The position numbers and the translations under genes were made by a program. A DNA stretch of 11,676 bases from Candidatus Vampirococcus lugosii (GTDB lineage Bacteria > Patescibacteriota > Gracilibacteria > Absconditabacterales > Absconditicoccaceae), in contig NZ_JAEDAM010000038.1 of assembly GCF_018420025.1 (NCBI RefSeq), positions 1-11,676 of the forward strand, given 5' to 3'. Of this stretch, positions 1-11,676 are shown piece by piece; the first letter of the stretch is position 1; each line of letters begins with the position of its first letter. The notes beneath the pieces were generated by a model. That model did no database searches. It was given only the letters and a program-made list of their open reading frames with translations, and was not told where the DNA came from.

Positions 1-127
1 TGGAAATCATAGCTAAAGTACAAATTAATTTTAAATAATTCTTATATTATGCTTTTATAATTAAAACATAAAAAAGGTTAATTTTTTTCTATAAATTAAT
101 ATAAGTAAGTTACCACTTAAGCAAAGT

Positions 128-136
128 AAAGAGGTG
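128..136 (+). promoter_or_regulatory. Shine-Dalgarno-like ribosome binding site (AAAGAGGTG) for the 141..347 ORF
   Basis: AAAGAGGTG ends 4 nt before the ATG at 141. The other gene starts I checked in this window (441, 7501, 6220, 5084, 2133, 1358, 7221) have no comparable purine-rich SD, so this one stands out. Confidence 0.5.
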
Positions 137-140
137 TAAC

Positions 141-347
141 ATGTCAAAAAACGATGCTCCCAATAGCTTCCATGGAAGGGAAGTTATCGAATCCAGAACT
201 GGCAATGCAAAAACAATTGTCAGCAATACTGACCGAACCAGGGATCCTGGTAAAGGTTCCACCGACAAGGTACACCAAACCGACAAGGGTCACACTACTG
301 TGCATCCAGATGGTAAGGTCAATTCCCACGGAAACCACGGAAAGTAG
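141..347 (+). CDS. Small hydrophilic hypothetical protein (68 aa, His/Gly/Lys/Thr/Asp-rich); family not recognised
   Basis: ATG at 141 follows an SD, TAG stop at 345-347, and a strong hairpin terminator lies directly downstream. There is no in-frame TGA; all 8 glycines are GGN codons. The region is much more GC-rich than the rest of the window. It has an internal near-repeat, accgacaaggtacac (261-275) and accgacaagggtcac (279-293), giving TDKVH / TDKGH. Two other standard-code ORFs overlap it (154..366 +, 144..338 -), as expected for any GC-rich patch, so coding status is not certain. Confidence 0.45.
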   Translation: MSKNDAPNSFHGREVIESRTGNAKTIVSNTDRTRDPGKGSTDKVHQTDKGHTTVHPDGKVNSHGNHGK

Positions 348-365
348 TATTTCTACATTCCTATA

Positions 366-404
366 GTGTCTCTAGTTCTACTTGAATTAGAGACACATTT
401 TATT
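366..404 (+). terminator. Rho-independent terminator
   Basis: The left arm gtgtctctagttc (366-378) pairs with gaattagagacac (384-396) as a 13-bp stem with one G-U pair and a 5-nt loop (tactt). It is followed by ATTTTATTATTATTTT. Confidence 0.8.
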
Positions 405-440
405 ATTATTTTCAATAATTATTTATAATAAAGCAAAAAA

Positions 441-977: not shown

Positions 978-1118
978 ATTTACAATATTTAATAAAATTA
1001 TAGCTAAATCATGGTGTGGAGTTTGAGGGGGCAATTAAATACATTTATTGTTTAAATAATTACAATATTCTATATAATCTTTCTTAATTTTCATAGTTTA
1101 TTTTTATCAAATTAAATT

Positions 1119-1358
1119 TTAATGGACTTTATCTTTTGGAGGACAAGGATCATTTCAAGGTGCAACTGTATCAGAATCGTTTATTTTTCAATTTTTTGAA
1201 TGAATTTTAACTTCTCATCATCAAGAATTTTCACACATTTTTTTGGCTAATTTTTCAGCTTCTTTTTTTGTGGAAATATTTATTTTACTATATTTTTTAG
1301 ATCATTCTTTTTTGATTTTGTATTTTCAAGTTTTTCAAGATAGGTGATAATTTGTCAT
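1119..1358 (-). CDS. DUF2188-like small protein, 79 aa (table 25)
   Basis: Translation is MTNYHLSGKTGKYKIKKEGSKKYSKINISTKKEAEKLAKKMCENSGGGEVKIHSKNGKINDSDTVAPGNDPCPPKDKVH*. It matches the DUF2188 pattern as I recall it: W/YxVkxeG...f.Tk.eAi..A..la...g.e..iH..dG.I...d....DP.PPkD. It contains three consecutive TGA codons (1215-1223) read as GGG. It starts 25 nt after the upstream HEPN gene stop. Confidence 0.7.
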
Positions 1359-1383: not shown

Positions 1384-2133
1384 TTAATTTAAAGGAAATT
1401 TTTCTTTAACTTCTTTTATTAACTGATTAACAAATAAAAAAGTTTCAAGATATTCTCAGGTATCAATTTTTAAATCATCTGATTTATTATGAGCTAAAAT
1501 ATTTCTATAATTTTTAAAAGTTCAAAGTAATAATTTGTATAATCATTCTTTTTTAGACTTTCAATCTGTTGTAGTTAAATCAATTCAAGTTATTTTTAGT
1601 TTTGGATTTGTAAAAATAGCTTCAACTGCATCTCATTCTTTCTTTTCTCAAGATAATCAAATCTTATTATGGTAATCTTTAAGATAAATACTTAAATAAT
1701 TTAATATTTCTCTCAAATAAACTCAATAATCTTTTGTTTTTAGTCAATTAAAAAAGAACTTTTTAATATCATTATCAAGTGTTTTTCAAATTTCTTTATA
1801 AATTAAATCTCAAAAATTATTCTCTTTTACTACTTCATTTTTTACTTCTTTCTTGTCAACTCTAGGATCATTTTTTACATCGTCAGGAACTCATAATCTC
1901 ACTAATAAATCTTCATATTTATCTGAATGATTTCTTTCAAAGGAATTTAACAAACTATAAAAAAACTCAACATCATTTTTATTTTGATATTGTCCTAATA
2001 CTACATCAGTAAATCTTGTAGGATTTTCAAGTTTTAATTCATCAAAAAAACTTAATCTATCAGGCATAGTATAAAATCATGGGTATTGTCATGATAAATA
2101 CAAAGCTATCCAATGATTTTGAGTTTTATCCAT
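1384..2133 (-). CDS. HEPN-domain protein of the TIGR02391 / Hypoth_Ymh type, 249 aa (table 25)
   Basis: The C-terminal region reads ...GLSGEKKEGDAVEAIF...TDGKSKKEGLYKLLLGTFKNYRNILAHNKSDDLKIDTGEYLETFLFVNQLIKEV. It contains the HEPN Rx4-6H motif as R-N-I-L-A-H (1489-1506), in the context typical of the Ymh family (..eG...l..G....RNp.AH....i...ea......s.L). The N-terminal roughly 110 aa are not recognised. Length is 750 nt, a multiple of 3, with a TAA stop. Confidence 0.65.
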
Positions 2134-2200
2134 AATTTAAGAATTGGAAGTAAATTATTTCATGATATTATACTATTTTTTGGGATTTTTCGCAAAAAAG

Positions 2201-3983
2201 TTAAGAGTTTTTATTTATTCATAAAAAAATTTCTAATTTATCTGAAAACAAATCTTCAGTTATTTGAAAATTTTCTTTGTTTATATGTTTCCATATTTGA
2301 AAAGGGTTTTTATCATCTTTTTCATATCAAATAACCGTTTCAAGTTTTTTTATATTAAAATGAATATTATTTTCTCAAGATTCATTTATAAGATTCCAAT
2401 TATTTGTAATTATTGGTTTATTTTCTGCATTTTTATATTCATTTCATTTTTTCATATCTTCTAGTGTTTCATATTTTTTTAATTTTCAAACTAGCTCTTT
2501 ATCATCTAGATCTAAATCAGTTATTATAAAACAATCTATTTCAAACCATTTACATAATTTTATAAGCAATAAAGCTGTAGTTTTTCAATGATGTGGAATT
2601 ATTGAAATATTATGAAAATTTAAATATGTTTCAGCATATTTTTCTTTATTTTCAATATCTGAACTTTCTTCAATATTTCCTAAAACCTTTTTATTTATTA
2701 CATGATTATAAACCATTAAATCATTTGGTCATTCAACAAGTATAACTTTTTTACTAAACAATATTTTGTTTAAATTTGGTTCAATATTTTTAATAAAACT
2801 ATTATATTCATTTAATCCAATATTATCTGGCTCTTGAATTTTATTATATTTTTTAATAGTTCATTTTGCTTCATCATGTTCAAGTCTTATTATTCATTTG
2901 GTATCAAACATATCAATCATTTTATCAGAATGAGTTGTATATATTACTTGATGTCATTTTTCAGTTAATCAACAAAGAACCATTTTATAAAAATATTCTT
3001 GATGATTTTCATGTAAAAAGCTTTCAGGCTCTTCAAATAAAAATAAACATTTATCATCTTCTTCTGTTTCAGCTATTGCTTGAATTACTGCCATTACAAA
3101 CATTGAAATATAACCATCTCAAAAATGATCTATTGGAATTAAATTTTTATCATTTCAATTAAGTCATATTTTAAACATCATTTGCAGAAAAATATCTTCA
3201 TAATCCGGTAATCAAAAATCTATTTTACAAGCTGTATTTCTAAGATTATTTTTATAATTATTTTGAATTTTTTCTATAAAATTTTGTAATTTAGTTTTAT
3301 TGTTTTCTTTTTTATCTTCTTCTCAATTTAAAACTTTTTTAGTAGCATTAGATATTTCATCTTTAAAATTATCTTTTCTTTCTTTCATTGATTCATCAGT
3401 TTTAACAAGTTTATCAATATGTTTTCCTAAAAATGATTTTAGATTTCCCCAACTTGTTTTTTGAGTAGATATTTCATTTTTTATATTATGAAAATTTATA
3501 TAATAAATAGGTGCTTTTTGTTTTATTGACCATTTTTTACCATAACTTGAACTTTCTCAATAACAATTACAAGTGTCACTTACAGATTTTATTGAATCAT
3601 TTTCAATATTAATTTTTATTGTATTTTTATAAAATTTATTATCTTCTATTTTATTATCTCATAATCAACAAGTTGCAAATTCTAATTCAAAAAAAGGTAG
3701 ATTATTCCAATCTTGGTTATGAAAATCTTTTATATCAAAAGTATCTTCTCTAACTGATTCATATAATCAATATTTTATAGCATTTAGTAAATTTGTTTTT
3801 CAAGCATTATTATATCAAATAATAGCAACTGGTTTTTTTATAAGTTTTATCTGGAAATTCAAAAATTTCTGCTTCATTATTATCTTCATTTTCATACAAA
3901 GGAAAATCAAAGTCTTCTTGTCTTATTCAAAAAGACCTATAATTTTTTACTTTAATATTTTTGATTCTTATTTTAACTGGCAT
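2201..3983 (-). CDS. OLD-family nuclease (N-terminal ABC/AAA_15-type ATPase plus C-terminal TOPRIM), roughly 590 aa; reading frame broken by 1 nt in a homopolymer at 3833-3839 (longest intact ORF 2201..3895)
   Basis: Frame A from the ATG at 3983 gives MPVKIRIKNIKVKNYRSFGIRQEDFDFP...FPDKTYKK, the typical IKN(F/Y)RSF N-terminal strand. The body, in the adjacent frame, gives PVAIIGYNNAGKTNLLNAIKYGL, with the Walker A GxxxxGKT at 3794-3817 and both Gly encoded by TGA. It continues HFGDGYISMFVMAVIQAIA (signature-like), CLFLFEEPESFLH (Walker B/D-loop), KVILVEGPNDL (TOPRIM E-G, 2729-2734) and IIPHHGKTTALL...CFIITDLDLDD (TOPRIM DxD). I verified the body line by line as open from 3841 to the TAA at 2201-2203. 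Confidence 0.85.
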
Positions 3984-4008
3984 AAAAAAACCTTATTAAA
4001 CTTTAAAA

Positions 4009-4197
4009 CTATAAATACCTCATCAAAAACCCCTCCTTCAACTCCTTCGCACCTTCAACAATTTTTCTATTTTCCTCAATTTTTTTCTCAATTTCTTCAA
4101 TTTGTGAAACAATTTCTTTTTGCTTTTCCAAAGAAGTAAGTGGGATTTGTAAAGTTTTTAAATATCTTTTAATTCTTTTTCTATATCTAACCAAGAT
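4009..4197 (-). pseudogene. Remnant of the C-terminus of an HsdS-like specificity subunit or domain (about 60 aa, no proper start)
   Basis: The stop-to-stop frame reads I(L)VRYRKRIKRYLKTLQIPLTSLEKQKEIVSQIEEIEKKIEENRKIVEGAKELKEGFLMRYL*. This is the classic TRD-to-conserved-helix junction of HsdS (IP(L/P)PxLxEQxxIVxxLxxxxxxI...L...kqglLq.l). It is bounded upstream by TAA at 4198-4200, has only a TTG as a possible start, and overlaps the 3' end of the endonuclease gene by 40 nt in another frame. Confidence 0.55.
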
Positions 4198-5084
4198 TTA
4201 GTAGTTAAAGGATGTTTTTGTTTGATTTCTTGTATTTTTTGTTTTATACTTTCATTATGATAATTTAATTCTTCCTCTAATTTCTCTATTCTCATCTTTT
4301 GTTTTATTATCCTTTTGTATAATTGATTATTTTTATCTTCTGCTATTTTTAGTAGTGATAATTTTTTAATAAATTCATCATTAAATATATCTTCATCAAG
4401 ATATTCATTAAAATTTTCATTTATTAAGTTTTTTATTTCATTTTTAGGAACTGGAAAATCATAACAAAGTTGTCATTCCATTCTTTGATTTACAAAAGGT
4501 CTATTTGATTTAAAAAAATTCAATCATTTTAAGTCATAAGATCAAGTTAAAAGGTCTATCATTAATATTAAGGTTATTTTTCAATTATATGCACAAGATT
4601 TTGAAAGTTGATCAATATTTCATTTTTTTATTGAAAAAATTCATTTTGAAGCAGATTTTAATTCTAATAAAAACTCTTTTCAATTATTTAATTTAATTAT
4701 ATAATCAGGTTGTGTAGTTTTACTTCAATATATTTCAATTTGATTTTTATCGTTTATAAAAAAATCGTGTTTACTATCATCACCAAATCATTCTATCAAA
4801 TTAATACTTAAATTTTTAGATAATAAATAAAAAAGTAAATCCTCCAAAAACCAACCATAAAGCATATTTCTTCAATATGTTATTGGGGATCTTCACATTG
4901 CTCATCATTTAAATTTATAACCTTTATTTATATATTCTTGTAATAACTTATATTTATCATAGTTTTCTTTCTCTATTTTTTCAAATTTATTTTTTCATAT
5001 TAAATCAGAAAATATTGTTTGATATCTAGATGAAATTTCAACAAACTCCATTTCGTCCAATCTTTTTTCTTCAAAGTTAAACAT
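4158..5084 (-). CDS. Putative type II restriction endonuclease (PD-(D/E)xK-like core plus C-terminal coiled coil), 308 aa (table 25)
   Basis: It lies 26 nt downstream of the C5-MTase on the same strand. The translation contains ...YGWFLEDLLFY...GFGDDSKHDFF...TTQPDYIIKLNNGKEFLLELKSASKG..., a PD-x15-E-L-K arrangement at 4656-4709. The last roughly 90 aa are Lys/Glu-rich heptad-like sequence (KIAEDKNNQLYKRIIKQKMRIEKLEEELNYHNESIKQKIQEIKQK). No specific REase family was recognised. I verified it line by line as open, 927 nt, with a TAA stop. Confidence 0.55.
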
Positions 5085-5110
5085 AATTAAATATTGTTAA
5101 ATTAGTTAAA

Positions 5111-6220
5111 TTAAGCTACTGTAAATAATTCCCTTTCTTTAAATTTGTTTTCTTTAAATCATTTAATATGATTTTTATAATTTGGCATTGTTCAAAGTAA
5201 AGAAGAAATTAATTTAGGAGGAACTCATTCTCATATTACTTGTCTAATTAAATTTTCACTTGCCCAATTTGGAAAAGATATATTATCAGGCAATCAAGTA
5301 AGAATAAAAATTTCTTTTAAACTTAAAACTCTAGCATCTGAATATGTTCAATCACTTTTTTTTCTTCAAGGATGAACATTATTTTGACTAGATACTCATC
5401 AATTACACATTGTAATAGTAGGAGCAGGTTTATCCCAATTAATTCTTTTATAAGTTGTTCTATATCATTTTATAGTTTCTCAATTTTCTTTTTGAGGATA
5501 ATATATTTTATTATCAAATGCAGTTTTTCAAGTTGGAGTATGTCTCATCCATAATATATGTTTATCATTATGTTTTTTAGCAAAATGATAAGGTATATGT
5601 GATTTTTCTCAACTTTCCAAACTTGGCAAATATCATATCGCCTCTTGAACTGTTATTTGTTTTTGTTTTTTCGGAAAATCCCATAATGGGATAGGTTTTT
5701 TTGTTAATATCGCAATAGCTCTTTTTCTTATTTGAGCTGTTCAATAATCTCAAGCATCTAATATTGATTTATTGATATTATATATTTTTGATAATTCCTT
5801 ATCTAAATAATCTGAAATTATAATTTCTTTTCAATCTATAATCAATTTTGTTTTAAAAAAAGATGGAACATTTTCTAATATAACATAATCAGGTTTTAAA
5901 TCTTTAATAAAATTTACTGCTTTAACTACAAGATTATTTCTTGGATCATCTTGTTGCCTTTTTCAAGCAAAAGACATTCATTGACAAGGAGGTGTTGCAA
6001 TTAAAAACTTACACTTTTTATCAATAGCACTTTTCAAAACTTTATTATAAATATTTTCATCTGTAATATCTCAACAAATCATATTAGAATTAGGATAAAA
6101 TCGTGAATATAAATCAGCTCTTTTAGGTATTAACTCATTAGCAACTTTTATATCAATTCAAAAATTATTTAAATAAAAATCTGATATTCAAACATTAGAA
6201 AACAAAGATACTCAATTCAT
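5111..6220 (-). CDS. DNA (cytosine-5)-methyltransferase, 369 aa (table 25)
   Basis: Canonical C5-MTase motifs appear in order: I VSLFSNVGISDF (degenerate FxGxG), IV ATPPCQGMSFAGKR (catalytic Cys; PPCQG at 5978-5992), VI YVILENVPSF (5867-5875), VIII GTAQIRKRAI, a TRD with TYKRINWDKPAPTIT, IX ARVLSLKEIFILTGLPD, and X RQVIGEGVPPKL. I count 23 in-frame TGAs and no GGN codon at all in this gene. I verified it line by line, 1110 nt, with a TAA stop. Confidence 0.93.
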
Positions 6221-6231
6221 TTTAAATAAAA

Positions 6232-7221
6232 TTAAATTATAAAATATAACACATCTTCTCAAAGAAATTTTTTCATTCAAACACTATAAAGTTTTTGCAG
6301 TCTATCTTGCAAAGAAAAAGGATCATCATAAGCCTTTCACTTCCAATAAAAACTTAAATCTTTTGAGTTATCTTTTTCATCAACTACCTTGCACAAAAAT
6401 AAATTTACAAGTTTATCAAAAGCATTTTCTCTTCAACTTACATTATGTTGTCTTAAAATCGTTGCAAATTCATGGTATTTTCAAGCAATATCTTTTGAGG
6501 AAACAGTTTTTAAGTCGTCAGTCGAAAATTTATTTTTTCAAATATCATAAGCTCTAGCATTTTCAAAAAGTCAAAGTCTAGCATATTCCTGGTCATAAGT
6601 ATCAACCCAAACTTTATAAATTTCTTCTACACTTGTTGCATCTCTGAAAGATTTTAATTTTGAATTATTTTTTAGTAAATCTTCATTGTCTTTCAAAGAT
6701 ATAAGATAATATTCTGGTCTTACTTCATTATCTACAAAATCACTTGCATAAAGAGCTATAAACTCTGTTGATTTTGCTTGTTGAGCATAAGAAAATATTT
6801 GAGTTGGTTTAGTTTGAGCTTGTTTCCAAGCATTATTAAATTCTCACACGGCAGTTTTACATTCAATAATTAAATAAGAATTTCATAAGTTGTTTTTTAC
6901 CAAAACATCAGCCTTTCATCAACTTGCACCGTGTCATACTTGCCATTTTGGTTCAAGTTCAATATGTTTTGGATTATATCATTGTTCAAGTAATCTATTT
7001 ACACATTCAAAAACTACAAAATTTTCTGGAGCTTTAAAATTACTTATAGTTCTATCATTTATTTTTAATCAAGAATTTTCTGGATAAACAAGTTTTTCAT
7101 TTTGAAAATCTACTTCTAAATTACAATCAAAGTTTTCAAATTTTTTAGAAAAATAATTTTCTTTAATTTCTTGAAAGTTTAGTTTTTTTAAAACCTCTTT
7201 AAGATTTTGTTTTGTTATCAT
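6232..7221 (-). CDS. Truncated RM protein: HSDR_N-type PD-(D/E)xK-like N-terminal domain plus HsdM-type N-terminal helical domain, with no methyltransferase catalytic domain, 329 aa (table 25)
   Basis: The translation has ...ELEPKWQVGHGASGGKADVLVKNNLGNSYLIIECKTAVGEF..IFSYAQQ, the HSDR_N-like D-x14-E-C-K at 6856-6909. It then has ...YHEFATILRQHNVSGRENAFDKLVNLFLCKVVDEKDNSKDLSFYWKGKAYDDPFSLQDRLQKLYSVGMKKFLGEDVLYFII*. That pattern precedes the AdoMet-binding domain in N6-adenine RM methylases. The ORF stops (TAA 6232-6234) before any FxGxG or NPPY/F catalytic motif, 11 nt upstream of the C5-MTase start. Confidence 0.7.
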
Positions 7222-7500
7222 TAATTAATTTTTTTTATATAAAAACACTTATAATACTAGCTTTTTTGGACAAAAAATCAAATATAATAAAATTAACAAG
7301 ATAATTATTTTTTATTTTTTCACAAATCATTAGTTTATTTTCAAATTAAAAAATTATACTTTATAATAATTAGTTTCTCATTTTTTTCAATCAAAAAACT
7401 ATAATTTATATTTTACTAAATTAACAAATTTTAAATTGACTTTTTAAATAAAAAAAATAAATAATAACTATATTTTTATTTAATTAAATTATAAAAAATT
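7222..7500. promoter_or_regulatory. Divergent AT-rich intergenic region, presumed to carry promoters for the minus-strand defence operon and the plus-strand surface-protein gene
   Basis: This 279-bp non-coding spacer lies between divergently oriented starts at 7221 (-) and 7501 (+). TATAAT-like and TTGAC-like strings are present, but such strings are expected by chance at this composition, so no individual box is called. Confidence 0.3.
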
Positions 7501-10500
7501 ATGAAAAAAATATTTTTGTTTTTATTTTTTATTCTATTTACAAATTTTTCTTATTGAAATTGAGTTGATATAAATTCTTGATTATCGGATCAAGCATTAG
7601 AATGAGTTCAATGATTTGCAAAAGATAGTGAATGAAATGTTTATGTTTGAGTTGCTAATGTAAAATGAAATTGACTTTATAAATTTGATTTTGATAATAA
7701 TTCTTGGGAAAAAATAATTTGATCACCGACATATTGATCTACAAGAAAACCTGAAATTATTCAATGAAGTGATTGAAATGATTATTTATTCTCTAGATCT
7801 CATATTTTAAATTTGTCAGATATTGAATCTGGTTGGTATAGTCCTAAAAAAATACCTGATAAAATTATTGATAAATATGATCCAGAAGAATACAAAGAAG
7901 CAAAAAGACTAAAATCACATTTGTATATGCAATTTGTTAGAGCTTGAGAATGAAGATTTTTGTTGGCAACAAGGAAATGATGAAATCCTATTATTTTGGC
8001 TTATGATCCAGTAAATCAAGAATGGGAAGACTTAAATTTTCCATATAAAGATTTGGATGGCAAACCTCATATCACACTTACAGAAATAGATTGAGTAGTT
8101 TTTTATAAAAGTAATTATTCTTGACTTTTTGCTTATCAAAATTGAATTTGGAACAGAATTACTCATAACAGAAGAGTTTTTAGATGAGAAACAAAATCAG
8201 AACATTCTTCTATGGCTTTTGGTTGGAATTGAAATAAAGATGATAGAGAAATTTATTATTCATATACTCCGATAAATGCAACACAAATCACAAGTGATAA
8301 ATTATTAAAAATGAATTGATATACTTTTAGTGAAAAAACTTCTGGTAAATGGGAAATTAGAGATAATTGATGAAGATTTGCAGAACATGTTTTGATAGAT
8401 TCTTCTTGGAAAGAATACAATAAATGATCTTGATATTGATTTTCTTGTAGACCACTACTTGATATAGCATATTGTATAGATGGTAGATTTTGATGATATT
8501 TTAAATTAGATAATTGAATATCTCAAATTCCAGATTATACTAATTGACTTTGATTAAATTTATGAAATACTTCATTATGAGTTAGAAGCAGTATAACTAA
8601 TGGAAATGATATATTTTTATTGATTAGATATAATTGAAAACAAACTATCAGAAAAATGACTTTTGATAAAAATGAAAATTGACAAATTGCAACTAATTTT
8701 GATAGTAATTACTCTTCTTATCTTGATTTTATATCTCCAAAATGATGAGCAATTTTGGAAAATTGAGATATTTTAATTTGATGAAATTTGAATAATAAAT
8801 CTTATTTATTTAGATATTCAAAAGATTATGAACAAAAAGATAAATATTTATTAACTTGAGATTTGGTACATATACAATGAAGTATAAATAATAAATATAC
8901 TTGAATTCTTACTACCGAAAAACTTTATTTATATGAAAATTGAAAAAAAATTTGGACTAGTGATATGAGTTGAAAATGAATTAAAGTAAATGATTACAAT
9001 AATGATAAACAACAAAAAAATCGTATTTCTGTATGAAATAATTGAAAAATTGCTATTTTGTATAATAAAAATATTGCTGTATTTCAAGATTGAAAAAGTA
9101 TTTTTGAAGAATATTTTGATAAAACCTATACTAATGATATAGCAATAGATAGTGATAAAAATAATATTTATGTTACTGGTTATCAACAATTTAATAATTT
9201 ACAAGTAGCTGTAATTTTTGCTTATGAAATTTGAAAAGAATGAATAATTTGGGATACTTGGAATTTCAATAAAAATGAACTTTCTGAAACTGAAAATATG
9301 GCTGATACTAGATGATATAGAATACAAATTTGACAAAATTGAGATTTATATTTTGCTGGTGAATCTGCTGGATGAAATACTATTTTTAGATGGAATTGAA
9401 AAAATTTAAAAACTTGAACTTTAAATGGGTGAGATATGTATAATGCATCTTGGTGAATAAGTGGTGCGGCTCATTTGTGATATTTATGAAGAATAGATAC
9501 TGATACTTGAGAAGTAAAACAATGACAAATTATAGTACCGAGATTGTCAAATTGAAATTGAAACACTTTTAGATCAAAAAATTGAGAAATAAATATTGAT
9601 AAAGATTGAAATGTAATTTTTATGGCTATATCTGCTTGTTGTGGACCAAATAGAGATTTTTTGTCAATAAATTGAGAAAGACTTGGTAAATATAGTTGAT
9701 GAGATAATATACTTTATATAACTGATAAAACTTTGAACGAAAGAATTCTTTGGACAAGTTTATCTGCTAATTTGGAATGACAAGAACAATGAAAATCCGT
9801 TTCTAGATGAGTTTTGGTTTGAGATGATATTTTTTATATTTTGAATGAAGTTGAAGAATGAGAAGTTTTTACTACTGATAATGCAAATATTTCTTCAAGA
9901 GATAAAGAATTACAAGCACAATTATTGGAAGTAATTTTACCATGATCCGAAAATCCTTGAAAAGATGAAAATTTTGAAGAAAAAGATCAAAAATCTATTA
10001 TGATAGATGAAATTTCTGTTAAAGATTCTATTAATTATAATGATAATTTTTTGGATATTGATATTCAACTTTTGGATGTAAATAAATTTGATAAACTTGA
10101 AATTTATTTAAAAAATAAAAATGATGATTTATTTGAACAAAAGAATATTTCTTTGGAAAAAAATCAAAATAATTTATCTATAAAATTGGAACTTAATTGA
10201 TTATATGATTATAATCAAGATCAATTAAAATTGGAAATAAATGTTTTTGATAATGATTTATCGGAATATAGTGATATGAAATTGATTAATATAACTTTCA
10301 ATTGAGAAGAAAAAGAAGAAAAAGAAGAAAAAGAAGAAAAAGAAGAAAAAGAAGAAAAAGAAGAAAAAAAATATGAAATAAAATTTGATTTAGAGCCACA
10401 AGGTTTAAATTTGGAAATAAAAGATAAAGATTGAAATATAATTGATTGAGAAAATAATAATTTTTGTATAAATTCTCTTTGAGATTTAGTTAAAAACTAT

Positions 10501-11676
10501 AATAAAGAAACAAGTGTAGTAAATAATTATGAAGAATTAAAAAATGCAATAAATATAGCTAATAATCGTTCAAATAAAGATAAATGGTATGAAATAATTA
10601 TTAAAAAATGAAATTATAATTTAAAAAATTGATTTAAAGTTAATTGAGATAAAATAATTTTTAGATGAGAAACTGGAAATCCAGAAGATGTAATATTAAA
10701 CTGAAAATGAATGAATTGATCAATATCTCATTGATTTTGGATATTATGAAATGATATTATCATATGAGATATGAGTATAGGGAAAGTAGCAAATCATGCA
10801 ATTCAAATTCATTGAGAAAAAGATGCAGATAATTTTTGGCTTTATAATTCAAAAATTTTTGATACTTGAGAACAAATGATAAAATGATCTTATGCAAACA
10901 ATGATTATTGAACAGATAATTGAATTATACAATGTAGTAAATTTGAATATACTGCTTGAATTTGACCACAATTTTATATATGATGAATAGATGTGCATTT
11001 TTGAAAAAATTGGATAATAAAGGATAATATCTTTAAAAATATAATAAGTCCAGAAAAAAAATTAGCTGAACATGCAATACATTTTTGGTCAAATAGTAAA
11101 TGAACAACAGTAAAAAGAAATAAAATATATAATTGCGATAGATGAATATGATTTTGAATGTGATCAAAAGCAAATAAATGACATAAATGATGAATAATAA
11201 TTGACAATATTATTTATACTAATTCTAATAAATGAGATGTTTGAATATGATTAGAAAACTCATATTGAACAGAAGTATTGAATAATACAATTTTTTTGGA
11301 TAATAAATATCAAAATGCTATAGAATATCGTTTTTCTTGAACAAAAGATGTAATAATAAAAAACAATTTGACAAATAAACTTATAAAAAGTAGAAATTCT
11401 TGAAAAGCAAAACTTGAAAATAATATTAATAATGCAGAAAAAAAATGGTTTAAATCAGTTGATAATTATAATTTTGATTTAAATGAAGAATATAAAAATT
11501 CATTAAAATTAGATTGAATATGAGCAAATACATTTAATAATCTTTATAATTTGAAAAATTGAGAATATACTTATATTGCAAGCTTAACTTGATATATTGA
11601 AAAACAAAATAATTTTGTAGTTGACTGAAAAAATAAAGAAATAATAATTAAACTACAAAAAGAAATAGAAAAAGAA
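7501..11676 (+). CDS. Very large secreted or surface protein (3' partial, at least 1392 aa): signal peptide, beta-propeller-like repeats, (EEK)7 linker, right-handed parallel beta-helix-like C-terminal region (table 25)
   Basis: The ATG at 7501 gives MKKIFLFLFFILFTNFSYG.., a Sec-type signal peptide. The frame is open to the window end when TGA is sense (4176 nt, a multiple of 3). The N-terminal part has recurring D/NxxGN(I/V)Y(V/F) strand motifs: DSEGNVYVGV, DGNDYLFS, DSDKNNIYVTGY, QNGDLYFAGESAGGN, DKDGNVIFMAIS. These resemble SBBP/NHL-style propeller blades. After the EEK repeat comes YEELKNAINIANN...YEIIIKKGNYNL...IIFRGETGNPEDVILNGKG...ANHAIQIHG...NSKIFDTGEQ...NKIYNCDRGIGFG...GGIIIDNIIY...IGLENSYGTEVLNNTIF, typical of PbH1 / pectate-lyase-fold beta-helix coils. 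Confidence 0.85.
10306..10368 (+). repeat. Perfect tandem repeat (GAAGAAAAA)x7, in frame, encoding (Glu-Glu-Lys)7
   Basis: Seven exact 9-bp units were read directly from the sequence. They lie in frame with the 7501 ORF (10306-7501 = 2805, a multiple of 3) and are followed by AAA TAT. Confidence 0.95.

What the first reader, a model, noticed from the sequence alone, without database searches (positions are those of the whole stretch)
4009..7221. A type II m5C restriction-modification pair appears to sit inside the wreck of an older HsdM/HsdS-like (or type IIB R-M-S fusion) gene
Read 5' to 3' on the minus strand, the first element is the N-terminal 329 aa of an N6-adenine RM methylase-type protein. 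It has a nuclease-like HSDR_N domain plus the HsdM N-terminal helical domain, and ends abruptly (...GMKKFLGEDVLYFII*) just where the catalytic domain should begin. Next come a complete C5-MTase, a putative PD-(D/E)xK endonuclease, and an unstartable roughly 60-aa frame that is an unmistakable HsdS C-terminal conserved helix (IPLTSLEKQKEIVSQIEEIEKKIE...). The missing parts (AdoMet and catalytic domain, TRDs) correspond to what the roughly 2 kb MTase/REase pair now occupies, between about 4198 and 6231. This looks like replacement or insertion of one RM system into another, a record of RM turnover. No transposase, integrase or flanking repeats were seen to explain the mechanism.
Basis: partly seen in the sequence, partly recalled or inferred. 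Interest (0 to 1): 0.65.

Follow-up and report, generated by a model that had tools for sequence, protein, structure and literature searches.

The report
Restriction system nested inside dead one
In a tiny uncultured bacterium that reads UGA as glycine, a compact two-gene cytosine-methylase/nuclease defence module has replaced the middle 70% of a large single-protein restriction enzyme gene, leaving both gene ends as scars; it is a clean, base-mapped example of one defence system replacing another, a process that is already known in general.

Summary
The window uses code 25 (UGA = Gly). The 329-aa ORF (6232-7221, minus strand) is residues 1-326 of a ~1260-aa single-chain type IIB/IIG R-M-S enzyme of the AloI/TstI size class. 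It is 92% identical to an intact 1261-aa gene in another Gracilibacteria genome (L004). The 61-aa frame (4009-4194) is the extreme C-terminus of the same protein: it matches L004 at E = 1e-13 and matches the C-terminal end of 45 of 57 intact family members. About 880 codons are missing (MTase core and both TRDs). In their place sits a 2.08-kb module: an intact m5C MTase (5111-6220) and an intact PD-(D/E)xK REase (4158-5084). Elsewhere these two genes are always adjacent (26 of 26 loci) and never lie next to R-M-S fragments (0 of 27). The breakpoints are at about 6242-6250 and 4160-4190. There are no flanking repeats, mobility genes or compositional contrast. The stub shows no pseudogene-like decay (omega about 0.1), so the event is recent or the stub is still constrained. 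The mechanism of entry is unresolved and was probably illegitimate recombination. RM-by-RM substitution is a known process, so this is a new, unusually clean member of a known kind. Interest is moderate to low.

The parts
6232..7221 (-). 5' stub of a single-chain type IIB/IIG R-M-S gene: 329 codons plus stop. It holds the PD-(D/E)xK nuclease domain (D105, E120-C-K122) and a helical linker. Residues 1-326 are ancestral; FII and the stop codon come from the insert.
   Evidence: PADLOC REase_MTase_IIG 1e-147, profile positions 1-324 of 1271. 92% aa and 91% nt identity to the intact L004 gene. Catalytic residues invariant in A1. BsaXI matches.
7222..7237 (-). Conserved 16-nt leader upstream of the stub's ATG; upstream limit of homology to the intact L004 gene
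   Evidence: The blastn alignment window 6253-7237 to L004 7896-8885 begins 21 nt before the L004 ATG at 7917.
6242..6250 (.). 5' breakpoint. Homology to both intact Gracilibacteria genes ends here (GAAGAT|GTGTTATAT). An in-frame TAA follows at 6234-6232, and the m5C ATG is at 6220.
   Evidence: Three-way DNA alignment of the window, L004 and L005.
5111..6220 (-). Intact C5-cytosine DNA methyltransferase, 369 aa; first gene of the inserted module
   Evidence: Pfam DNA_methylase 5.1e-49, full length. M.HaeIII 4e-13. Homologue at 54-78% identity directly upstream of the REase homologue in 26 of 26 loci.
4158..5084 (-). Intact putative type II restriction endonuclease, 308 aa, PD-(D/E)xK fold, from an uncharacterised family with no Pfam, NCBIfam or PADLOC model; second gene of the inserted module
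   Evidence: 66-member family, 300-317 aa. Invariant D127, E141, K143. AF2 pLDDT 93.3. Foldseek hits HincII, RecU, Hjc and SwaI. No Pfam, NCBIfam or PADLOC hit.
4158..4190 (.). 3' breakpoint zone. Cassette homology to L090 ends at 4173. Family C-termini begin aligning at about 4161, with a weaker YRxxxxR TRD-end motif from 4185. The REase stop codon is at 4160-4158.
4009..4194 (-). 3' remnant of the same R-M-S gene: the end of TRD2, the C-terminal conserved helix and the native stop codon. About 50 codons (4161-4012) are securely ancestral.
   Evidence: tblastn against L004 residues 1205-1261, E = 1e-13. 87% nt identity over 4010-4128. Matches the C-terminal end of 45 of 57 intact proteins.
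2201..3895 (-). Context, not part of the scar: Old-family ATPase/TOPRIM nuclease immediately downstream. It shows that the locus is a defence island.
   Evidence: Pfam AAA_15 5e-19 and OLD-like_TOPRIM 3e-13. PADLOC Old 1.5e-37.
1384..2133 (-). Context: HEPN-type protein (Hypoth_Ymh, R-x4-H motif RNILAH) downstream of the Old-family gene
   Evidence: Pfam Hypoth_Ymh 1e-6. PADLOC PD-Lambda-3_B 4e-5.

Best explanation
An ancestor of this code-25 (Gracilibacteria-type) bacterium carried an intact gene of about 1260 codons for a single-chain type IIB/IIG restriction-modification-specificity enzyme of the AloI/TstI class. Its domain order was an N-terminal PD-(D/E)xK nuclease, a helical linker, a gamma-type N6-adenine MTase and two HsdS-like TRDs. 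A gene-sized 2.08-kb module, consisting of an m5C methyltransferase followed by its cognate PD-(D/E)xK endonuclease, then replaced codons ~327 to ~1210 of that gene (about 2.6 kb). The module came from another low-GC, code-25 organism. The replacement removed the AdoMet-binding and catalytic core and both TRDs, so the old enzyme is dead. Its first 326 codons and last ~50 codons remain as scars. The new module begins only about 25 nt after the 5' breakpoint and ends at the 3' breakpoint. It therefore lies in the old gene's transcription unit and is most likely expressed as a stub-M-R operon from the old promoter; this step is inferred. The joining mechanism was most likely illegitimate (non-homologous or microhomology) recombination in one step, or an insertion followed by a deletion; this is also inferred, because no recombinase, repeat or target duplication is present. 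The event is either recent relative to the split from the L004 lineage, or the stub remains under constraint. Shown: the identities of all four pieces, the breakpoints, the intactness of M and R, the M-R linkage and the uniqueness of the nesting. Inferred: direction and order of events, expression and mechanism.
For: The stub equals residues 1-326 of a 1271-position profile and is 92% identical to the intact L004 gene. The remnant equals L004's last 57 residues (E = 1e-13) and the C-terminal end of 45 of 57 intact relatives. 57 of 80 reference-genome copies are intact at 1180-1345 aa, and L004 has N6_Mtase plus two Methylase_S stretches. The 5' breakpoint is sharp in a three-way DNA alignment, and the 3' edge is bounded by L090 and by the family C-termini. 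The MTase is full length. The REase is full length and has a nuclease fold. M-R adjacency holds in 26 of 26 loci, between unrelated housekeeping genes, and 0 of 27 carry R-M-S fragments. The cassette uses UGA for 82-100% of its Gly codons and has GC3 of 0.08-0.11, like the flanks, and a 75%-identical copy lies in another code-25 contig. Both junctions recur in an independent assembly. Substitution of one RM system by another at a locus is documented (PMC2853133).
Against: No empty-site or intermediate genome was found, so the order of events (one-step replacement versus insertion plus deletion) and the assumption that stub and remnant come from one gene copy rest on parsimony. L004 itself carries an orphan second 3' end, which shows that such fragments can arise in other ways. 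The stub shows no excess non-synonymous change (8.5 non-synonymous and 18.5 synonymous on the window branch versus 5.5 and 18.5 for intact L004; p = 0.76), which fits a wreck only if the event is recent. No promoter can be called reliably in this AT-rich DNA (38 sites versus 29.6 +/- 5.5 expected). Neither enzyme's activity is tested.
Confidence: 0.85

Rival explanations
1. The stub and the 3' remnant derive from two different R-M-S gene copies or alleles, for example a truncated copy plus an orphan 3' end left by an earlier turnover event. Under this reading the M-R module landed between them rather than replacing the interior of a single gene.
For: L004 has exactly such an orphan 3' end (14534-14637, 84% identical to the window's) about 2.8 kb downstream of its intact gene, separated from it by three unrelated genes. 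The TRD-proximal part of the window's remnant differs from L004's TRD2 end. The Logan contig ends right at the remnant's stop codon, which hints at a repeated or variable junction.
Against: It requires more events. The stub and remnant are in the same orientation and order. They are similarly diverged from L004 (91% versus 87% nt). Nothing lies between them except the tightly fitting cassette. TRD divergence is expected between alleles of one gene family.
Confidence: 0.1
2. The 329-aa stub is not a wreck but a retained, selected product. It might act as a stand-alone nuclease-domain protein, or as a leader ORF needed for expression or translational coupling of the new M-R operon.
For: There are no internal stops or frameshifts in 326 codons. 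Window-branch omega is about 0.1 and cannot be distinguished from the intact L004 branch. Both polymorphisms against L001 that fall in the stub are synonymous. The m5C ATG lies 11 nt after the stub's stop codon. The catalytic D...ExK residues are intact.
Against: The same pattern is expected if the event is recent. If the stub evolved neutrally after the event, solving for the neutral fraction with the L004-branch omega as baseline puts the disruption in roughly the last 4% of the window branch (one search counts; small numbers). The stub's C-terminus is unique. Other truncated copies are random nonsense, frameshift or deletion decay with no shared end-point. Type IIB nuclease domains depend on the MTase and TRD parts for DNA recognition (established knowledge; TstI, PMC4027205).
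Confidence: 0.12
3. Metagenome assembly chimera: the junctions join reads from different genomes that share R-M-S or cassette sequence.
For: R-M-S gene ends are conserved among Gracilibacteria (87-91% nt) and could confuse an assembler.
Against: An independently assembled Logan contig (SRR13241709) spans both junctions and 3 kb beyond the stub at 99.95% identity. A chimera would not produce clean ORF boundaries, with a stop codon 10 nt after the breakpoint and an M start 25 nt after it, at both ends.
Confidence: 0.02
4. HSDR_N plus helical-domain proteins of about 329 aa are a natural stand-alone family, and the 61-aa frame is a chance coiled-coil match.
For: Databases list about 300-340-aa 'HsdR N-terminal domain-containing proteins'.
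Against: Those are contig-end fragments or nonsense-truncated copies. Genomic ORFs are 1250-1340 aa. The 61-aa frame matches the C-terminal ends of 45 of 57 intact proteins.
Confidence: 0.01

Closest known systems
Single-chain type IIB R-M-S enzymes (AloI, TstI, PpiI, CjeI; TstI native 1251 aa, PMC4027205)
   Same: The ancestral gene's intact relatives are single polypeptides of 1250-1340 aa. Their domain order is N-terminal PD-(D/E)xK nuclease, gamma-type N6-MTase (NPPY), then two HsdS-like TRDs ending in a conserved helix.
   Different: In the window only 26% at the N-terminus and about 4% at the C-terminus survive. No direct sequence comparison with AloI or TstI was possible here, because their sequences are not in the libraries used. 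Double-sided cleavage is untested.
BsaXI (two-subunit type IIB; PDB 8w0p; PMC11997821)
   Same: It is the best solved-structure match to the family (E = 8e-15), with matches in the nuclease, helical and MTase regions.
   Different: BsaXI has a separate S subunit. This family fuses S to RM.
Allelic substitution or insertion of RM systems ('mobile forms of RM systems', Furuta, Abe and Kobayashi 2010, PMC2853133)
   Same: One RM system occupies the place of another with no linked mobility gene. The RM unit is a compact, horizontally moving module found between housekeeping genes.
   Different: Here the substitution is intragenic: both ends of the displaced gene survive and map the breakpoints to within about 10-30 nt. 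No long target duplication, inverted repeats or short target-site duplication were found.
Classical type II m5C RM pairs (M.HaeIII/M.HhaI-type MTase plus a PD-(D/E)xK REase)
   Same: A full-length C5-MTase with motifs I, IV (PCQ) and VI (ENV), an adjacent co-oriented PD-(D/E)xK nuclease, and strictly conserved linkage.
   Different: The REase family is uncharacterised, with no Pfam, NCBIfam or PADLOC model. The recognition sequence is unknown.

Membership tests
Single-chain type IIB/IIG R-M-S enzymes (AloI/TstI-like) | N-terminal PD-(D/E)xK endonuclease domain | tested here: met
   D105 and E120-C-K122 are invariant in A1. HSDR_N_2 is weak at 2.6e-4. The BsaXI nuclease region aligns. PADLOC REase_MTase_IIG 1e-147.
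Single-chain type IIB/IIG R-M-S enzymes (AloI/TstI-like) | N6-adenine MTase catalytic domain (AdoMet motif, NPPY) in the same polypeptide | tested here: not met
   Absent from the window: the stub ends at residue 326, and tblastn finds nothing for L004 residues 327-1204. Present in the intact relatives (N6_Mtase 2.5e-28, residues 400-637, ANPPYS). The window therefore holds a dead remnant of a member, not a member.
Single-chain type IIB/IIG R-M-S enzymes (AloI/TstI-like) | Two HsdS-like TRDs with conserved spacer and C-terminal helices | tested here: not met
   Only the last ~50 residues survive in the window. L004 has two Methylase_S stretches.
Single-chain type IIB/IIG R-M-S enzymes (AloI/TstI-like) | Length of about 1250 aa as a single ORF | tested here: not met
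   The window has 329 aa plus an orphan 61-aa frame. 57 of 80 relatives are 1180-1345 aa. TstI is 1251 aa.
Single-chain type IIB/IIG R-M-S enzymes (AloI/TstI-like) | Cleavage on both sides of a bipartite recognition site | not testable with these tools
   Biochemical property.
Type II m5C restriction-modification pair | Complete C5-MTase with the conserved motifs | tested here: met
   Pfam DNA_methylase 5.1e-49 over profile positions 1-321 of 324. FSNVG, PPCQG and ENV are seen in the translation.
Type II m5C restriction-modification pair | Adjacent cognate endonuclease with a nuclease fold and catalytic residues | tested here: met
   D127, E141 and K143 invariant. AF2 pLDDT 93. All top Foldseek hits are PD-(D/E)xK nucleases, although weak (E = 4e-4 at best, TM 0.24-0.64).
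Type II m5C restriction-modification pair | Conserved M-R gene linkage across genomes | tested here: met
   26 of 26 loci with upstream sequence.
Type II m5C restriction-modification pair | Sequence-specific cleavage blocked by the cognate methylation | not testable with these tools
   Requires expression and methylome or cleavage assays.
Recognised mobile forms of RM units (Furuta et al. 2010) | Flanking direct repeats, long target duplication, or terminal inverted repeats | tested here: not met
   Only AT-rich chance matches flank 4160-6245. None were found in 7 of 8 other cassette contexts, and one weak 65-nt, 71%-identical pair was found in L104.
Recognised mobile forms of RM units (Furuta et al. 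2010) | Linked integrase, transposase or tRNA target | tested here: not met
   No such Pfam hit among the seven window proteins scanned. No tRNA. The cassette is absent from viral contigs.
Recognised mobile forms of RM units (Furuta et al. 2010) | Substitution of one RM by another at a locus | tested here: met
   category described in PMC2853133.

The most novel reading that the evidence does not exclude
The M-R pair is a gene-sized, recombinase-free mobile cassette that preferentially overwrites resident restriction genes, a form of direct inter-system competition. Under this reading the open, slowly evolving 329-aa nuclease stub is retained because it now serves the invader, as a promoter and leader or as a partner protein. 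The conserved ends of type IIB genes would then act as reusable landing pads for defence-gene turnover in Gracilibacteria. The orphan 3' end and the DUF2188 stub in L004 hint at this.
Probability: 0.06. Interest if true: 0.7.

Novelty: new member of a known kind. Interest (0 to 1): 0.33.

Why it matters
The window gives a base-resolved snapshot of defence-system turnover in a candidate-phyla-radiation bacterium with an alternative genetic code. The displaced system, the incoming system and both junctions are all identifiable, and an intact copy of the displaced gene (92% identical over the stub) exists in another genome for comparison. It shows that both the large type IIB gene and the small m5C RM pair move as gene-sized units without recognisable mobility machinery. 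It shows that the incoming module came from within the code-25 gene pool, since UGA-Gly codons sit inside its conserved motifs. It also defines an uncharacterised PD-(D/E)xK REase family of 66 members that is always paired with one C5-MTase clade. Practically, it warns that database 'HsdR N-terminal domain-containing proteins' of about 320 aa are fragments of type IIB genes. It does not change how RM evolution is understood.

Tried and rejected
(1) Table 11 translation gives only short ORFs; it was rejected in favour of code 25. (2) I first read the 236-576-aa length spectrum of protein-database homologues as possible recurrent truncation or a cassette hot spot. I rejected this because genomic ORFs are 1250-1340 aa, so the spectrum is a database or contig-end artefact (versus 19). 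(3) I looked for recurrent insertion of foreign genes into this gene family. The 11 short copies among the 80 loci are nonsense mutations, a frameshift, deletions or shorter variants, with no inserted RM. Calothrix has an internal deletion. (4) I asked whether the cassette travels with R-M-S fragments: 0 of 27 loci. L090's 61-aa ORF after the REase looked like a parallel but is unrelated sequence. (5) I looked for synteny with the intact Gracilibacteria copies and found none beyond the gene itself. (6) I searched for flanking repeats or target duplications in the window and in 8 other cassette contexts and found none that were convincing. (7) The compositional and codon-usage contrast between cassette and flanks showed no difference. 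(8) Promoter and terminator scans did not exceed shuffle expectation for promoters. (9) tRNA and Rfam searches for an integration target or ncRNA found nothing. (10) The relative-rate test for pseudogene-like decay of the stub showed no signal. (11) No cassette relative was found in viral contigs. (12) The literature searches found the general category (RM substitution) but no exact precedent in the searchable library for a type II pair nested inside a type IIB gene.
Full report
GENETIC CODE AND GENE MAP. Under table 11 the window has almost no long ORFs. Reading UGA as sense raises the total length of ORFs of at least 100 aa from 446 to 4238 residues. UGA falls at conserved glycines, for example C5-MTase motif IV PPCQ-UGA-MS, so the code is table 25 (Gracilibacteria/Absconditabacteria). 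GC is about 22%. The minus strand carries, in order: a 329-aa ORF (6232-7221), a 369-aa C5-MTase (5111-6220), a 308-aa ORF (4158-5084), a 61-aa frame (4009-4194), an Old-family ATPase/TOPRIM nuclease (2201-3895), a HEPN/Hypoth_Ymh protein (1384-2133) and a small DUF2188 gene (1116-1358). SpoU (432-977) and a protein of more than 1390 aa (7501 to the window end) lie on the plus strand.

THE 329-AA ORF IS THE FIRST QUARTER OF A LARGE R-M-S FUSION. Pfam alone is weak (HSDR_N_2 2.6e-4, below threshold). However, residues 1-326 align to positions 1-324 of a 1271-position PADLOC profile, 'Type IIG restriction enzyme-methyltransferase', at E = 1e-147. A scan of one genome per species found 411 loci encoding relatives. 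Of the best 80, 57 are single ORFs of 1180-1345 aa, 12 run off their contigs and 11 are shorter. A Gracilibacteria MAG (L004, JASMTS010000011) has an intact 1261-aa ORF. Its first 326 residues are 92% identical to the window's ORF (91% at the DNA level). The intact protein has N6_Mtase (2.5e-28, residues 400-637, with ANPPYS) and two Methylase_S stretches. The closest solved structure is the type IIB enzyme RM.BsaXI (8w0p, 8e-15). The size matches single-chain type IIB enzymes such as TstI, which is 1251 aa (PMC4027205). The stub keeps the PD-(D/E)xK residues (D105, E120-x-K122, invariant in alignment A1). It ends 74 residues before the N6_Mtase domain begins.

THE 61-AA FRAME IS THE C-TERMINUS OF THE SAME PROTEIN. 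tblastn of the L004 protein against the window gives, besides the stub, one significant hit. Residues 1205-1261 match window 4185-4012 (E = 1e-13), and both end ...EGAKELKEG-L-RYL followed by the stop codon. At the DNA level, 4010-4128 is 87% identical to the 3' end of the L004 gene. The frame matches 45 of 57 intact family members, always at their extreme C-terminus. The missing part is about L004 residues 327-1204/1212, roughly 880 codons or 2.6 kb: the whole catalytic core and both TRDs.

BREAKPOINTS. In a three-way alignment with L004 and L005 (a second Gracilibacteria copy, open for 835 aa until its contig ends), homology ends at window ~6242-6250 (...GAAGAT|GTGTTATAT...). An in-frame TAA follows at 6234-6232, and the MTase ATG is at 6220. 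At the other end, an independent code-25 contig (L090) carries the same M-R cassette at 75% nt identity over window 4173-5966, but has unrelated sequence downstream. Its REase C-terminus (...W-EIEKE...) is conserved with the window's. The R-M-S family C-termini begin to align at ~4161, abutting the REase stop codon at 4160-4158, and a weaker TRD-end motif may extend the remnant to 4185. The insert is thus about 2.06-2.09 kb and consists of two ORFs, with about 25 nt of leader and essentially no trailer.

THE INSERT IS AN INTACT, CONSERVED TWO-GENE RM MODULE. The MTase matches Pfam DNA_methylase end to end (5e-49) and M.HaeIII (4e-13). The 308-aa protein has no Pfam, NCBIfam or PADLOC family. 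It belongs to a 66-member family of 300-317-aa proteins that cover 97-99% of it, so it is intact. D127, E141 and K143 are invariant in that family. An AlphaFold2 model is confident (pLDDT 93.3, pTM 0.85). All its leading Foldseek hits are PD-(D/E)xK nucleases: HincII, RecU, Hjc and SwaI. They are weak (best E = 3.7e-4) but consistent. In every one of 26 loci with enough upstream sequence, the REase homologue is directly preceded by a homologue of this MTase at 54-78% identity. The pair sits tightly between unrelated housekeeping genes, for example Peptidase_M17|M|R|RraA and TrwB-like|M|R|EF-P. None of the 27 loci contains any R-M-S fragment, and no relative of the cassette was found in viral contigs. 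The nesting is therefore a one-off event in this lineage, not something the cassette carries with it.

MECHANISM: WHAT IS AND IS NOT SEEN. No transposase, integrase or tRNA was found. No Rfam family matches. No meaningful direct or inverted repeats flank the insert. Eight other cassette contexts show no convincing target duplications, apart from one weak 65-nt, 71%-identical pair in L104. Codon usage, GC3 (0.08-0.11) and UGA-for-Gly usage (82-100%) in the cassette cannot be distinguished from the flanks. Together with L090, this means the donor was another code-25, low-GC organism. The most economical mechanism is illegitimate recombination replacing the gene's interior, or an insertion followed by a deletion; this is inference. 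The MTase start lies 11 nt after the stub's stop codon, and nothing else intervenes, so the pair probably uses the old gene's promoter. This is also inference, because promoter scans are uninformative in this AT-rich DNA. The old enzyme carried R and M in a single polypeptide, so its loss should not trigger the classical post-segregational killing described for two-protein type II systems (framework in PMC2993543; its application here is inference).

AGE AND STATUS OF THE STUB. With L005 as the outgroup, the window branch has 18.5 synonymous and 8.5 non-synonymous changes. The intact L004 branch has 18.5 and 5.5 (Fisher p = 0.76), and omega is about 0.1. There are no internal stops. The only two differences from the near-identical Logan contig that fall inside the stub are synonymous. 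Either the replacement is recent, or the stub is still constrained. If the stub evolved neutrally after the event, the disruption would fall in roughly the last 4% of the branch, on small counts. The data cannot separate these two readings.

ARTEFACT CHECK. A Logan assembly of SRR13241709 (L001, 6301 nt) is 99.95% identical to window 4006-10306 and spans both junctions, so an assembly chimera is very unlikely. It is the same strain and does not count as an independent evolutionary observation.

A FALSE LEAD WORTH RECORDING. The protein-database search returned only fragments of 236-576 aa, which at first suggested recurrent truncation. The genome scan showed this to be an artefact. The database's '~323-aa HsdR N-terminal domain-containing proteins' are nonsense-truncated copies. 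For example, in Psychrobacter sp. Cmf 22.2 the 1309-aa relative aligns straight through the stop codon.

COMPARISON WITH KNOWN SYSTEMS AND VERDICT. The displaced gene is a dead remnant of a single-chain type IIB/IIG R-M-S enzyme. The window's copy fails the defining features, having no MTase core and no TRDs, so it is a relic rather than a member. The incoming pair meets the sequence-level criteria of a type II m5C RM system with a new, uncharacterised REase family. RM-by-RM substitution without linked mobility genes is an established category (Furuta et al. 2010, PMC2853133). The distinctive points here are that the substitution is intragenic, that both ends of the victim gene are preserved, and that the junctions are mapped to about 10-30 nt in a CPR bacterium with a reassigned stop codon. 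I found no exact precedent in the searchable library, but the phenomenon would not surprise a specialist. Classification: new member of a known kind. Interest: about 0.33.

Noticed in passing
L004 14534-14637 (and L004 11718-14547): The Gracilibacteria genome with the intact R-M-S gene also carries an orphan second copy of that gene's last ~105 nt (84% identical to the window's remnant). It lies about 2.8 kb downstream, after a 215-aa ORF, a 355-aa ORF and a RhuM-family gene (Pfam 1e-105). This looks like another turnover scar at the same conserved 3' segment.
   Followed up: partly
window 1116-1358 (-); L004 13480-13547: A 68-nt window-to-L004 match turned out to be the 5' end of an 80-codon (79 aa plus stop) DUF2188 gene (Pfam 1e-11). 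The gene is intact in the window. In L004 it is reduced to a 22-codon stub directly upstream of the RhuM gene, which is more evidence that these islands are mosaics of gene fragments.
   Followed up: partly
window 7222-7237 and 4009-4011 versus L004 7896-11702: Homology between the window and L004 is confined to the R-M-S gene itself, from about 16-21 nt before the ATG to the stop codon. The flanks are unrelated, so the 3.8-kb type IIB gene also seems to move as a gene-sized unit. Family members are 50-70% identical across Campylobacterota, Bacteroidota, Cyanobacteria, Gammaproteobacteria and CPR.
   Followed up: no
window 1384-3895 (-): An Old-family ATPase/TOPRIM nuclease (PADLOC Old 1.5e-37) is followed by a HEPN/Hypoth_Ymh protein (RNILAH motif; weak PD-Lambda-3_B hit). 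This may be a two-gene defence pair immediately downstream of the scar.
   Followed up: partly
L003 8001-10453 (Calothrix sp. 336/3, CP011382); L051 (Psychrobacter sp. Cmf 22.2): Public annotations 'type I restriction enzyme HsdR N-terminal domain-containing protein' of 394 aa and 323 aa are pseudogene pieces of this type IIB family. The Calothrix copy has an internal deletion of the catalytic core, and the Psychrobacter copy has an in-frame stop at codon 324.
   Followed up: yes
L001 end = window 4006: The independent Logan contig stops 3 nt after the remnant's stop codon. This could mark an assembly-graph branch at a repeated or strain-variable junction.
   Followed up: no
L104 4874-4938 and 7058-7122: A 65-nt imperfect (71% identical) direct repeat flanks the M-R cassette in one of the eight other contexts examined. 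It may be a target duplication or a promoter-like AT-rich coincidence.
   Followed up: no
window 1-430: The left end has 33-35% GC against about 22% elsewhere. It contains a UGA-free 68-aa hydrophilic ORF (141-347, plus strand). There is no Rfam or tRNA hit, and its nature is unknown.
   Followed up: partly
(tool behaviour): The 5.8-billion-protein search listed no homologue longer than 576 aa, although genomic ORFs of the family are 1250-1340 aa. The length distribution from that tool should not be read as biology.
   Followed up: yes
window 7501-11676 (+): A very large secreted or surface protein (over 1390 aa, signal-peptide-like N-terminus, (EEK)n repeat near residue 860) is very rich in UGA-Gly codons (123 of 139 Gly codons). 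It was not analysed further.
   Followed up: no
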